Positions 27,001-31,061 of a stretch of 64,000 nucleotides of DNA are shown piece by piece (the stretch's first letter is position 1; the number at the start of each line of letters is the position of its first letter). This stretch comes from Desulfobacterales bacterium (lineage in GTDB: Bacteria > Desulfobacterota > Desulfobacteria > Desulfobacterales > UBA2245), in assembly GCA_040771865.1 (NCBI GenBank), contig JAXGZF010000003.1:248001-312000 (forward strand), given 5' to 3'. Made by a program: the position numbers.

Positions 27001-30000
27001 CGTAAAAAAAATCGATTGATGCGTTGCGCGGCATTCCTGAGCCTGAATCCGGATTCGCGAAACCGTCAATACGAAGAGATATGATTGGAACGCCATCTTG
27101 TCGATATCACAACGATGCATTTCAAGAATAATTTCCCGAAAGACCGCCCCCTCACATGCTTCCCTCATGGACAAGTTCAGCAATGGAATGGGACGCGGCG
27201 TCGGTACCGGATAAAAGGACTGCATTCAAATGATTAAACTGTTTTTGTCGATTCAAGCGTCGACGGTTTGTTTTGTGACTCGAATCATGCCTCGGTTTTT
27301 CAAAATTTCCGGCACGAGGTTGTATTTCGGAAGATGTCCGCAGGGCATCTTCGGCCCCTGCATTGTGTTTTTTCCGGTTTATCAGAACCGCCTGTTTTGC
27401 GGCCTTTCGGGAATTGTGGCATTTAAGGCGTCCCGGAAGCCTCGGGTCCGGGCTGATTTTGACCGGTTGAAGCAGATGCTCGAAATACTGGAGCAAAAAG
27501 GAATGCAAACCTGTCTGACCTCCGGACTGGACATGACATCGGATTATCTGGGCGGCGCCTGTGCAAAGGATTTTTACCGGACGACCGCGACATTTAAATG
27601 CCGTGATCCGTTTCACGAAATTTTTACCGACAGCCGCCTGATATCCGAGCTCAAACAGATTCAGGGCCGGCTGAACGAAATCCTTGCGCGTGAAACTCAA
27701 AGCTTTGCCGAGCATATGGGCCGCCTGGAGGCTTCGGCGTTTAAAGTGGTTTCCGAAAGAATCGACACGCTGAAAGATATCTCTTGGCAGATTGGATCGG
27801 AAATTGCCGCGAATATCGAGAAGGTCAGATCCTTGATGGGCGCATATTCCGGAACCCTTTCGCCGAATGTGGTCGGTCTGTTTAAAAATATCAACGCCGT
27901 ATTGAACAGCATTGACAGACTGGAGGTCCGGGGCAGGGATTCGGCGGGAATCTCACTGATGTTCGTCCTGGATAAGGCTCGGTATGAACGCTTTGAGGAC
28001 GCGCTGAAGGAGGAGTTTCTGACAGACGAGTACCATGCCCGGCTGGAGTGGAAGGTTTTGGGGAATCGGTGCATCAACGTTCATGAATACGGGGCGAAAA
28101 GCCCTTCCGGTCCAATTGTCGGACTGAGCTTTGCGTACAAGATTGCCGCCGAAATCGGCAGTCTTGGCGACAATGTTCGGTTTCTACGAAAGCAGATTTC
28201 CGAAGATGACGTTCTCAAGCAGCTTTCGCAAATCGGATGGCGGCATCATACCGTGTCTTCCCACACCCGATGGGCCTCGGTGGGGGTGATCGCCGAGGCC
28301 AACTGCCATCCCCTGGACAGCCAGGTTGCAGGCAGGGGGGCGGAAGGCATCATTCATGTCTGCCTGAACGGGGATATCGACAACTATCTGGAACTCAGGG
28401 CCGAACATGAACGGCAGGGGAATCGGATTGCGCAGGAGATTACCACCGACACCAAGATTATTCCGCTTCAGATCGAGGCCTATCTTCGCAAGGGGTATGA
28501 TGTCGCCGAATCATTCCGTAAGGCGGTCAATGATTTTCAAGGCTCCCATGCGATTTCCATGCACACGGACCTTGCGCCCGGCAAGTTTTTTCTGGCGCAG
28601 AAGGGAAGCGGGCAGGCGGTGTTTATCGGTATTGCCGAAGAACACTACATGCCGACTTCCGAAGTTTACGGATTTGTGGAGGAAACGTCCAGATATATCA
28701 AAATGAGCGGTGAGTCCGCGTTGAATGAAAAGACCGGAGAGGCCGGCGGGCAGATCGTCATTCTCGATCAGCAGTCCGCGGGAGAGCTTGAGGGGATTGA
28801 AGCCATGCATTACGATGGAACCCCTATCTGCCTTGTTCCGGAAGATATTCAGCAAACGCTTATTACCTCCAGGGACATCGACCGACAGGGGCATCCCCAT
28901 TACTTTTTCAAGGAAATCATGGAGTCTCCGGAATCGGTTGAAAAGACGCTACAAAATCGATGGAAGCGCATTCCCGGTTCGGATTCATCCTGTGCCGTCT
29001 ATCTCGATGAAGCCGAGTTTCCCGAAGCGCTTCGGCGCGCGTTTGTCGGGAACCGGATTCGAAGGGTCTTTTTTATCGGACAGGGAACCGCCGGTGTCGC
29101 AGCCCAGGTATGCGCCGATATCCTGCATTACTATTTAAATGATCCCGCACTTCCGGTCTGCGCGCTCAAATCCTCCGAACTCAGCGGATTCAGGCTGGTT
29201 GACGGCGACAACGGCACGGCCATGTCCGACACGCTGGTGGTGGCCATCACCCAGTCCGGAACCACGACGGATACCAACCGGGCCGTGGATATGGTTCGTG
29301 CCCGGGGAGCTCACACCCTTGCCATTGTCAACCGGCGGGATTCGGACGTGACCTTTAAGGTTCACGGTGTTGTATACACCAGCAGCGGCCGGGACATCGA
29401 AATGTCCGTGGCTTCTACAAAGGCGTTTTATTCACAGATCGTGGCCGGCGCGCTGGTCGCTCTTTTTATCGCGCAGCTGAAAGGCGCCCGCGATGTCCGG
29501 TTTGTCACCGGAGCCGTCCGTGAGCTTCGGGAACTTCCCGGTCATATGCGAACCATCCTTGCCGGTCATGAAAAGATCGCCGCCTCGGCAAGACGCATCG
29601 CCGTCACAAAAACCTACTGGGCCACCGTCGGAAGCGGTCCCAACAAGGCTTCGGCGGATGAGATTCGAATCAAGCTCAGCGAGCTTTGCTATAAGACCAT
29701 TTCATCGGATTTTATCGAGGATAAGAAGCATATCGATCTATCCTCGGAACCGCTGATCATTATCTGCGCGGCGGGCGTGCGCGAGGCCGTCATCGGGGAT
29801 ATCATCAAGGATACGGCGATTTTCCGTGCCCACAAAGCCACTCCCGTGGTGATTGCCGACGAGGGAGATCATAGGTTCGATTCCTATGCCGTCGATGTCT
29901 TTCATGTGCCCCGGGTCAGCGAGCAGCTTGCACCGGTGGTCAATACGCTGGTCGGCCATATCTGGGGGTATTACGCGGCCCTGGCGATCAACGAGGGCTC

Positions 30001-31061
30001 CCGGTTTCTGTTTGATTTCCGGCAGGATATCGAGAAAATCATCGGGGATTATTCCAGCCGGGGGCTGGATATTTTCGAGATCATTCTCGAGAAGAGATTT
30101 CGGGAGAAGATCGCCCGGTTTGACCATGAGTTCAGGCAACGTAAGGCGGAAAAACGGTTTCCCACCGCCATCGGTTTCGAGAAGGTCGTGGACCTGACCC
30201 TGCTTCTGAAATATCTCGCCGGCAAACTTCCGGTTTCTGAATTTGAAATGGACTTCGGCGCCAAGGGAAGAGCCCTGAACATTGTCAATACGCTGATGGA
30301 GTGCATGGCGGAGTTTATTAACGCGATGGCCCGTCCAGTGGATGCCATCAAGCATCAGGCCAAGACCGTGACTGTGGGCACCAGCCGGATCAGCGAAAAG
30401 ATCGAAGGCATTCTCTTCGACAAACTGGCCGAATACAACCTCGGTATTTCCCGGCTGACTCCCCGCAACGTGCTGGTCCTGAGAAACCTTCAGGAAATCG
30501 TATCGAGGATTGAAGGCGAGATTCTATATCGCATCGGCGGGCTCAATCTTCTTGGGGAGCCGACAGAGGAAACCACCATTCAGATCGTCAGAAAGTCCGG
30601 TTCCCTGGCTTTGATTCCATCCCGCGTGGAAACCGACAGTCGTCTGAAAGGAACCAAGCGCATCATCGTTCGTCAGGGAAATGTCTATATCGGAAGGGGG
30701 CGAAAGGATGATCGAAAGATCATTGTGATTCCGCTGCTTTCGGAATTTCCCGCGCCGCCGTTGATCGAATGCCTGCTGCTGCTGAATTTCGATTTTAAGG
30801 AAAATGTTTCTCTGGATGCCAGAATCAAAGCCCTGGGCGGAAAATACGAGCATATTAAAAACATTGTTCAGGAGAACAGCATCCAGTGGGATAAGGCGAT
30901 GATCGATCGCGTGAAAATCGAGGATCTGTTCGGAATTTCAGCCGAAAAGATCGCCGAGCAGATCATCGTTTCATTGCGCTGAGGCCAGCGGCAGGCATAG
31001 AAAAGGGCGCTCCGGCGGCTGGGTTGCGGGTTGCTTCCCTCATGAACAGATGAAGGCCTCA

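What a model noticed while it worked through the whole genome (the two positions that open the first line are those of the whole stretch)
27230..30982. Giant 1250-aa GlmS whose catalytic Cys is buried behind a conserved propeptide
The only GlmS (g00262) is twice normal size: its N-terminal-nucleophile Cys is residue 57 behind a conserved leader, so it must be processed like PurF, and it carries a ~160-aa helical insertion and a ~330-aa C-terminal extension. This form is the standard GlmS of Desulfobacterales.
Evidence so far: Single match in this genome; the giant form in 24 of 25 relatives, normal GlmS in 1; normal 610-aa GlmS in most other Desulfobacterota. In 21 of 22 full sequences the CG motif is preceded by non-start codons and a leader with invariant F-P; one other family has Met directly before CG, fixing the Cys position. 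Glutaminase motifs RGRDS, HTRWAS, NCHP, NGDIDN align to E. coli GlmS. Model shows folded insertion; C-terminal domain well folded, pLDDT 93. No paper found.
(Added by a program. Inside this text positions count along the whole contig: contig position 248,001 is position 1 of the stretch shown here. "Call 12" and the like, gene names such as g00115 and contig names such as C1 are that model's own, and its searches are not shown. The text may have been shortened before it was handed on; [...] marks where a part breaks off. The agent that wrote the report below was given it as the finding of a first reader that could run no searches.)

Follow-up and report, generated by a model that had tools for sequence, protein, structure and literature searches.

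The report
Double-size GlmS with a removable leader
This is a real, unstudied, double-size form of the enzyme that makes glucosamine-6-phosphate for the bacterial cell envelope: its catalytic cysteine lies behind a translated 56-residue leader that most likely has to be cut off, and it carries three helical inserts and a sensor-like end domain that may regulate it.

Summary
Confirmed, with corrections. Window 27230-30982 encodes the genome's only GlmS (1250 aa). Cys57 superposes on Cys1 of E. coli GlmS (Z 30.9), and the catalytic residues are kept. The leader is translated: it diverges like coding sequence, and no start codon precedes the Cys. A Shine-Dalgarno signal sits there in 5 of 89 leader forms against 19 of 21 leaderless forms. 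In the order, 111 of 115 matching genomes have only the giant form.

The leader arose once in an older giant family and was lost repeatedly (about five times in this order). Each loss puts Met directly before the Cys, so the Cys must end up N-terminal. Self-cleavage as in PurF is the best reading; it is inferred, not shown.

Correction: the '330-aa extension' is a 113-aa helical insert, then the catalytic tail (Lys1045 = Lys603), then 200 aa. Most of these adopt a GAF/PAS-like topology (weak, best Z 6.5). There is also a second, 67-aa insert.

No paper was found. This scan reported the family before on other DNA (8 notes shown; look-alikes in 30 genomes). New variant of a known enzyme.

The parts
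27230..27313 (+). Leader, variable part (aa 1-28): basic, amphipathic-helix-like, no hydrophobic signal-peptide core
   Evidence: 114 leaders: median length 28, net charge >0 in 94%, hydrophobic moment above shuffles (p<0.05) in 47% (query p=0.10), Kyte-Doolittle 19-mer >1.6 in only 7. SD-like site before the ATG at 27230, -5.3 kcal/mol.
27317..27397 (+). Leader, conserved core (aa 30-56; consensus VYFG-x6-P-x2-SIVFFP-x7 before Cys): predicted two strands, then a disordered linker at the presumed cut site
   Evidence: P at -8 in 79 of 80; differences by codon position 0.49/0.39/0.66; 60% of same-residue codon pairs synonymous; strands at aa 30-33 and 44-47, block pLDDT 75-79 (aa 24-43) then 69, aa 53-56 under 50; all 10 hits at E<1e-3 are giant GlmS frames.
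27398..27400 (+). Cys57, the N-terminal nucleophile after processing (= Cys1 of GlmS)
   Evidence: aligns to residue 1 of 1xff; CG present behind a leader in 119 of the 120 best homologues, the other being an N-truncated fragment.
27398..28873 (+). Class II (Ntn) glutaminase domain, aa 57-548, interrupted by inserts 1 and 2; R234, D237, R347, W348, H360, N380, G381, D407 kept
27431..27859 (+). Insert 1 (about aa 68-210; +152 aa against a normal GlmS), long helical bundle between strand 1 and helix 1; not an intein
   Evidence: offset 56 to 208; all helical, pLDDT mostly above 94; no Hint domain; D183 and W186 conserved in at least 93% of 69 distant members.
27962..28255 (+).
   Evidence: offset 208 to 275; RG to HTRW 67-114 aa, median 105, against 44 in a normal GlmS.
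28874..29989 (+). Isomerase/synthase part, two SIS domains (aa 549-920); T620, Q675, S676, T679, K815, E818, K833, H834 match T302, Q348, S349, T352, K485, E488, K503, H504 of a normal GlmS; S303 is Ala and S347 is Thr
29990..30334 (+). Insert 3 (about aa 921-1035; +113 aa) between SIS2 and the catalytic tail; helical from its sequence pattern (not modelled here)
   Evidence: offset 329 to 442.
30335..30379 (+). Catalytic C-tail PVDAIKHQAKTVTVG (aa 1036-1050), now internal; K1045 (codon 30362-30364) = Schiff-base Lys603; G1050 replaces terminal Glu608
   Evidence: H1042-G1050 conserved in at least 93% of 69 members. The role of Lys603 is recalled.
30380..30982 (+). True C-terminal extension (aa 1051-1250): a GAF/PAS/Cache-like alpha/beta domain (about aa 1055-1190) with conserved G1096, Y1100, G1124, S1131, R1132, G1141, K1143, G1157, P1168, plus a small helical subdomain (aa 1191-1247)
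   Evidence: pLDDT 92.8, pTM 0.88; best Z 6.5, rmsd 4.2, 97 aligned to the PtsP GAF domain; 45 of 50 rows cover this part, 5 rows match the last 56 residues to FlhA-family chains at Z about 5.2; no Foldseek hit at E<=0.001..
25591..26856 (-). Divergent neighbour: stand-alone GlmU acetyltransferase-like protein (next pathway steps)
   Evidence: TIGR01173 positions 241-441, E 3e-14; next to the giant gene in several distant relatives too.
24245..25591 (-). glmM, phosphoglucosamine mutase
   Evidence: TIGR01455, 541 bits, over cut-off.

Best explanation
The gene encodes the cell's working glucosamine-6-phosphate synthase, made as a precursor. The ribosome starts at Met1 and makes a 56-residue leader whose conserved core sits at a fixed distance from Cys57 and probably packs on the glutaminase domain. 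After folding, the 56-57 bond is cut, most likely by Cys57 itself (N-to-S acyl shift, the Ntn route known for PurF propeptides). This frees the alpha-amino group and switches on glutamine hydrolysis. Ammonia passes the conserved Trp gate to the sugar site, where Lys1045 of the now internal tail binds fructose-6-phosphate. The leader is an add-on that the chemistry does not need; most likely it gates activation or positions the precursor through its basic amphipathic helix. The inserts and the GAF/PAS-like end domain are older than the leader. The end domain hangs directly on the catalytic tail, so it is best read as a built-in allosteric sensor of a small metabolite.

SHOWN: ORF, fold, conserved catalytic residues, sole GlmS, translated leader, no internal start, repeated loss to Met-Cys.
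INFERRED: cleavage, that it is autocatalytic, the role of the leader, ligand binding and regulation by the end domain.
For: Fold and register: (Z 30.9). Glutamine-site residues R234, D237, HTRWAS, CHP, NGD, D407 invariant in 83 of 83 leader and 9 of 9 Met forms. No other route found in a 98% complete genome: no second GlmS, no NagB-family match, one other SIS protein, while GlmM and both GlmU halves are present. Giant and normal GlmS never co-occur in 115 genomes. No start codon at -1 in 89 of 89 leader forms, with SD at or below -5 kcal/mol in 5 of 89 against 19 of 21 Met forms. All 26 leader forms fall in one clade (0.999) with 5 Met forms nested, rooted on a normal GlmS; 5 changes within the order. 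The residue before Cys varies (C, F, N, S, A, Y, G, P, H), which fits cleavage set by the nucleophile rather than by a protease's P1 pocket (inference). The model is ordered except aa 53-56 at the cut site. Precedent: PurF propeptides are autocatalytically cleaved to expose Cys (PMC7056826, passages); E. coli GlmS needs its N-terminal Cys (PMC11822699, passages); this genome's PurF-type frame has a 10-residue piece before CG.
Against: No direct evidence of cleavage, expression or activity: two supplement searches of Desulfobacteraceae proteomics gave nothing. Pro stands at -1 in 3 of 121 loci, and Pro there hinders acyl shift in inteins (recalled). No position in the mature enzyme is conserved in leader forms and relaxed across all Met lineages, so no docking or processing surface was identified. 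Multiple losses rest on weakly resolved trees: the AU test against one Met clade gave p 0.046, and an early tree with only 4 such forms showed them as one clade. The GAF/PAS match is below the tool's own noise level of Z 7-8, and Foldseek found nothing at E<=0.001. The protein scores under the GlmS cut-off and has S303A, S347T and no free terminal carboxylate.
Confidence: 0.66

Rival explanations
1. The leader is removed by a separate protease that reads the conserved VYFG...SIVFFP core (or by stepwise trimming), so GlmS activation is under outside control.
For: The core is conserved at a fixed spacing (P at -8 in 79 of 80), more than a passive spacer needs. Pro at -1 in 3 of 121 loci. No leader-specific residues were found in the mature enzyme.
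Against: The P1 residue varies over nine residue types. The Ntn fold is known to remove its own propeptide in the same family (PMC7056826). I did not search for a co-distributed protease.
Confidence: 0.14
2. The leader is never cut. The leader form works as an ammonia-dependent aminotransferase, or the leader supplies a substitute base, and acts as a permanent membrane or partner tether.
For: The basic amphipathic N-terminal helix suggests a tether. The core packs with moderate confidence in the single-chain model. Ammonia-dependent activity without Cys1 is known for PurF (recalled).
Against: Cys and every glutamine-site motif are invariant in 83 of 83 leader forms (Cys partly by construction there, unbiased 119 of 120). 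Each of the leaderless forms has Met or TTG exactly at -1, never a partial leader.
Confidence: 0.1
3. The protein makes another amino sugar or uses another sugar phosphate; it is a GlmS relative and not GlmS itself.
For: Below the TIGR01135 cut-off, about 25% identity, S303A, S347T and E351T at the phosphate loops.
Against: It is the only candidate in 111 genomes and excludes the normal form. It lies next to glmM and a GlmU half here and in several distant relatives. No NagB-family match.
Confidence: 0.06
4. The leader is an annotation artefact: translation starts at or next to the Cys codon and the upstream frame is open by chance or for an RNA element.
For: TTG or GTG occur at -2 in 10 of 89 leader forms.
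Against: Coding-type divergence; no SD at the Cys (5 of 89 against 19 of 21); no start codon at -1 in 89 of 89; no Rfam match in 26700-27600.
Confidence: 0.04

Closest known systems
Bacterial GlmS, glucosamine-6-phosphate synthase (E. coli; PDB 1xff, 2j6h, 3ooj, 1jxa; TIGR01135 / NF001484)
   Same: Ntn glutaminase plus two SIS domains plus C-tail, same order; Cys1, Arg26, Asp29, HTRW, His86, Asn-Gly, Asp123, Lys485, Glu488, Lys503, His504, Lys603 equivalents kept; pathway neighbours glmM and glmU-like.
   Different: Twice the length; a 56-aa leader instead of a single Met; inserts of +152, +67 and +113 aa; the C-tail is internal and followed by 200 aa; Glu608 and its free carboxylate are replaced by Gly; below the family cut-off.
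Propeptide-bearing class II amidotransferases: B. subtilis-type and plant PurF/GPRAT (PMC7056826); glutamate synthase GltB (recalled)
   Same: Ntn fold with catalytic Cys behind a translated N-terminal piece that is cut to expose it; PurF and GltB chains align from their Cys to Cys57 (Z 18-23).
   Different: Their propeptides are short (this genome's PurF-type frame: 10 residues). Here the leader is about 51 aa (median) with a structured conserved core and a basic helix, on an enzyme for which no propeptide was found in print. No sequence likeness between the leaders was seen.
GAF/PAS/Cache sensor domains (e.g. PtsP/EI-Ntr GAF, PDB 3trc)
   Same: Predicted helix-helix-strand-strand-helix-three-strand topology; the top rows of the wide fold search are almost all such domains. 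In Salmonella the EI-Ntr GAF domain reads the glutamine/2-oxoglutarate ratio and GlmS is inhibited through EIIA-Ntr (PMC5024086, passages).
   Different: Z only 5-6.5, rmsd 3-5, about 10% identity; no Pfam or PDB sequence match; ligand unknown; fused in cis to the catalytic tail.
Eukaryotic GFAT (human GFAT-1, PDB 6r4i and others)
   Same: Larger GlmS homologue with allosteric control (structures with UDP-GlcNAc listed; the inhibition is recalled); glutaminase fold Z 29.
   Different: Starts Met-Cys, about 690 aa, no leader, no helical bundles of this size, no C-terminal domain.

Membership tests
GlmS (EC 2.6.1.16) | Class II glutaminase fold with nucleophile Cys at the start of strand 1 | tested here: met
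   Cys57 = residue 1 of 1xff, Z 30.9, rmsd 1.8, 238 aligned.
GlmS (EC 2.6.1.16) | Glutamine-site and channel residues (Arg26, Asp29, Arg73, Trp74, His86, Asn98, Gly99, Asp123; roles recalled) | tested here: met
   Thr76 is Ser and His77 is Val/Asn.
GlmS (EC 2.6.1.16) | Two SIS domains with Glu488, His504, Lys485 and a tail with Lys603 | tested here: met
   E818, H834, K815, K1045; Ser303 is Ala, Ser347 is Thr.
GlmS (EC 2.6.1.16) | Score over the curated cut-off of TIGR01135 / NF001484 | tested here: not met
   230 against 418 and 248 against 381 bits; the match breaks at the inserts.
GlmS (EC 2.6.1.16) | Translated as Met-Cys and ending at the catalytic tail | tested here: not met
   Leader of 56 aa and 200 aa after the tail.
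GlmS (EC 2.6.1.16) | Forms GlcN-6-P from Fru-6-P and glutamine | not testable with these tools
   Indirect only: sole candidate and gene neighbours.
Self-processing Ntn precursors (PurF/GltB type) | Translated propeptide before the nucleophile | tested here: met
Self-processing Ntn precursors (PurF/GltB type) | Autocatalytic cleavage at the nucleophile | not testable with these tools
GAF/PAS/Cache sensor domain | Fold | tested here: inconclusive
   best Z 6.5 (rmsd 4.2, 97 aligned), 45 of 50 rows on this part, but under the Z 7-8 noise level; no hit at E<=0.001.
GAF/PAS/Cache sensor domain | Sequence match to a GAF/PAS/Cache profile | tested here: not met
   0 of 91 members match such a Pfam family at E<=1; no PDB sequence hit below E 1.
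GAF/PAS/Cache sensor domain | Ligand binding | not testable with these tools
   Conserved S1131, R1132, K1143 and Gly residues suggest a pocket (inference).
Lipoprotein or Sec signal peptide | Hydrophobic core and lipobox [LVI][ASTVI][GAS]C (motif recalled) | tested here: not met
   -2 is Leu or Phe in 75 of 80; hydrophobic 19-mer above 1.6 in 7 of 114.
Intein-containing GlmS | Hint domain in the insert | tested here: not met
   No Hint match; insert 1 is all helical.

The most novel reading that the evidence does not exclude
A whole order of sulfate reducers controls the first step of cell-envelope sugar synthesis at the protein level with a self-contained, two-layer switch not described for GlmS. 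A structured leader holds the enzyme as an inactive, possibly membrane-tethered precursor until self-cleavage is triggered. A GAF/PAS-like domain fused to the catalytic Lys tail senses a metabolite (nitrogen status or a pathway product) and sets the activity or the rate of maturation.
Probability: 0.3. Interest if true: 0.8.

Novelty: new variant of a known kind. Interest (0 to 1): 0.58.

Why it matters
GlmS is a textbook enzyme, described as starting Met-Cys and ending at its catalytic tail. A form that breaks both rules is the standard GlmS of Desulfobacterales (111 of 115 genomes with a match), a major group of sediment sulfate reducers. It also occurs, mostly leaderless, in records named Planctomycetota, Acidimicrobiaceae and Ca. 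Xenobia. It falls under the curated cut-off and is often labelled only 'SIS domain-containing protein', so pathway reconstructions can miss it. Natural leader and leaderless sister pairs make two questions directly testable: what a long Ntn propeptide is for, and whether a bacterial GlmS can be allosterically controlled by a fused sensor domain.

Tried and rejected
Riboswitch or ribozyme upstream: no Rfam match at E<=5 in 26700-27600.
Internal or non-canonical start at the Cys: rejected.
Lipoprotein or signal peptide, and intein: rejected (membership table).
Sequence searches for the C-terminal domain: Pfam (91 members), PDB profile and Atlas (best 0.80, unnamed clusters) gave nothing. The Atlas search for insert 1 gave only unnamed clusters at 0.89. 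Foldseek gave no hit at E<=0.001. These absences do not show a new fold.
Stand-alone homologues of the C-terminal domain: among the best 150 of 343 representatives I read the N-termini of the 39 of 1000 aa or more and six proteins in full; the short hits were not checked one by one.
Leader docking site: the complex predictor was not available, so whether the cut leader stays bound is open. Covariation over 233 sequences (Neff 114) gave only signals among variable columns, read as phylogenetic noise. Sites relaxed after leader loss: none convincing.
Expression: four RNA-library contig sets from one study hold short exact pieces of the gene, including 27151-27320 over the start; shares were small and DNA carry-over is not excluded, so this is not used as evidence.
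Proteomics: the one text supplement held for each of PMC5109826 and PMC11887813 gave no hit. Tables or deposited spectra I could not see may bear on expression and processing.
Literature: searches found no description of a long-form or propeptide-bearing GlmS. Subscription papers are largely missing from the library.
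Full report
THE OBSERVATION. The window holds an open frame at 27230-30982 (+) of 1250 aa. It matches SIS and class II amidotransferase profiles, and the GlmS models at E 1e-68 to 1e-73 but below their cut-offs. A CG motif starts at residue 57, preceded by TTT. A model of residues 24-548, built on 81 sequences (pLDDT 91.0, pTM 0.89), superposes on the glutaminase domain of E. coli GlmS with Cys57 on residue 1 (1xff, Z 30.9, rmsd 1.8, 238 aligned). PurF and glutamate synthase follow at Z 18-23. The genome (98% complete) has no other GlmS: the second TIGR01135 hit is a 479-aa frame with a PurF-type N-terminus (label from recalled motifs). It has no NagB-family match and one other SIS protein of 344 aa.

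ANATOMY, CORRECTED. Aligning to a normal 608-aa GlmS from the same order (L062) gives the offsets directly: a 56-aa leader; +152 aa after the first strand; +67 aa between RGRDS and HTRW; a colinear SIS pair; +113 aa; then residues 1037-1050 matching 595-608, with K1045 on K603 and G1050 on the terminal E608; then 200 further residues. K485, E488, K503 and H504 are matched by K815, E818, K833 and H834. Differences at the sugar-phosphate loops are S303A, S347T and E351T. The inserts and the extension are present across 63 measurable members of 69 diverse ones (Cys to RG 130-180 aa against 25 in the normal enzyme; tail to end 196-250 aa).

IS THE LEADER REAL? Of the 120 best homologues listed (6902 found), 119 have CG behind a leader and one is an N-truncated fragment. 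Six of the 119 were called from an internal Met. In 80 non-redundant loci with at least 40 upstream residues, the core (aa 30-56) has G at -23 in 69, F at -9 in 76 and P at -8 in 79. Its differences by codon position are 0.49/0.39/0.66, and 60% of same-residue pairs differ synonymously, as in the enzyme body; the first 27 residues are far more variable. No leader form has a start codon at -1 (0 of 89). A Shine-Dalgarno match at or below -5 kcal/mol lies before the -1 codon in 5 of 89 leader forms and 19 of 21 leaderless forms. An upstream start with such a match exists in 64 of 85 (best of several candidates, so biased upward), at a median 51 codons. No Rfam family lies upstream. The leader is not a signal peptide or lipobox. 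Its first part is basic (net positive in 94% of 114) and often amphipathic (47% above shuffles at p<0.05; the query itself p=0.10). A leader profile found only giant GlmS frames at E<1e-3 (10 of 10) in 151 genomes; six weaker hits lie in short frames and are taken as chance.

MUST IT BE CUT? Three lines say the Cys has to become N-terminal. First, R234, D237, HTRWAS, CHP, NGD and D407 are invariant in 83 of 83 leader forms and 9 of 9 Met forms. That set came from 121 loci reduced to 92 at 85% identity; truncated loci, one duplicate and one normal GlmS were dropped, and the Cys itself was part of the selection pattern. Second, the giant form is the sole GlmS: among 121 genomes of the order, 111 have only it, 4 only a normal GlmS, 6 neither, and none both. 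Third, the history. With the normal GlmS as outgroup, all 26 leader forms in a 70-sequence tree form one clade (0.999) containing 5 nested Met-Cys forms, and the other 38 Met-Cys forms lie outside (same clade). Within the order and its close relatives, 16 Met-Cys forms among 105 sequences need 5 changes (5 again with IQ-TREE on 40 rows). Forcing them together is only marginally rejected (p-AU 0.046), and an earlier tree with four of them showed one clade, so the safe count is two to six losses. In every leaderless locus read, the start codon is exactly at -1. In print, E. coli GlmS depends on its N-terminal Cys (PMC11822699, passages). B. subtilis-type and plant PurF carry propeptides that are autocatalytically cleaved to expose the Cys (PMC7056826, passages; class statement in PMC9140057, passages). 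The residue before the Cys varies over nine types, and the model is disordered just at aa 53-56. Both fit self-cleavage but do not prove it. Against it: Pro at -1 in 3 of 121 loci, no leader-linked site in the mature enzyme, no covariation signal, and no proteomic evidence found.

THE END DOMAIN. Residues 1053-1247 fold confidently (pLDDT 92.8) as two helices, two strands, a helix, three strands, then a small helical subdomain. Sequence searches name nothing, and Foldseek has no hit at E<=0.001. In the wide structural search, 45 of 50 rows cover about aa 1055-1190 and are, by title or recalled fold, nearly all GAF, PAS, LOV or Cache sensor domains. The best is the PtsP GAF domain (Z 6.5, rmsd 4.2, 97 aligned). 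Five rows match the last 56 residues to FlhA-family chains at Z about 5.2. These Z values are under the level the tool calls common, so this is a topology resemblance and not membership. G1096, Y1100, G1124, S1131, R1132, G1141, K1143, G1157, P1168 and E1215 are kept in at least 93% of 69 distant members, which suggests a pocket for an anionic ligand (inference). Because the domain follows the Lys tail directly, an allosteric role is the natural guess. In Salmonella, nitrogen status read by a GAF domain reaches GlmS through a separate protein (PMC5024086, passages); this is an analogy only.

CONTEXT AND RANGE. The gene is divergent from a stand-alone GlmU acetyltransferase-like gene and glmM. 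The uridyltransferase half lies elsewhere, after ATP synthase genes. Among 161 loci with short and uneven flanks, a GlmU-half gene was seen next to the giant gene in 12 and glmM in 5, several in other orders, and pyrG in 40 (these counts include duplicates of the query). The end domain was found in 21 of 291 phylum genomes outside the order and in 343 clusters at 50% identity. Named members include Planctomycetota, Acidimicrobiaceae and Ca. Xenobia (30 looked up, most unnamed). The closest named relatives are Desulfobacteraceae/Desulfobacterales.

NOVELTY. Nine literature searches (listings and abstract starts read) found no account of this form. The scan's own notes report it from other genomes: 8 notes shown, look-alikes in 31 windows of 30 genomes. 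They agree with the reading I had stated before opening them and are not independent support. Each ingredient has a precedent (GlmS chemistry, Ntn propeptides, GAF-type regulation). The combination on GlmS does not appear in the papers searched.

VERDICT. Real, widespread, and a new variant of a known enzyme. A precursor that is cut at Cys57 is likely (about 0.8), self-cleavage about 0.66, a regulatory end domain plausible but unproven. Interest 0.58.

Noticed in passing
window 25591-26856 (-) and L164 (G000:C3:314337-315062): GlmU is split in this genome: an acetyltransferase-like half with about 190 extra C-terminal residues lies beside glmM, and a uridyltransferase half (270-aa frame) lies after ATP synthase genes.
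   Followed up: partly
P0243 (1545 aa), P0265 (1539 aa): Very divergent giant-GlmS relatives with the same end domain, apparently partly duplicated, whose catalytic motifs are degenerate (no HTRW, no tail Lys motif, GCSVG in place of the CG strand); unnamed metagenome records.
   Followed up: no
P0127, P0128: Giant-GlmS C-terminal halves fused to a further domain of about 290 aa; probably fragments of a longer fusion.
   Followed up: no
L161 and L162 (G371); L163 (G396): Two genomes carry two giant-GlmS copies, one of them a 968-aa frame; contamination is 5% and 8%, so they may be binning artefacts.
   Followed up: no
L107:2980-6600, L124:2819-6600, L045, G014: Giant glmS copies broken by a frameshift or stop in single assemblies; sequencing error or pseudogene not resolved. 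L107 is a leaderless copy in a record titled Ca. Aminicenantes.
   Followed up: no
L063 (G006:C41:28427-28606): A short second copy of the last part of the end domain lies about 7 kb from the intact gene in a 154-aa frame.
   Followed up: no
window 39715-43356 (+): A TonB-receptor-like ORF (638 aa) followed by a radical-SAM-like ORF with a C-terminal Cys-rich domain (433 aa), after a sensor kinase and a periplasmic binding-like protein; labels recalled from motifs, not tested.
   Followed up: no
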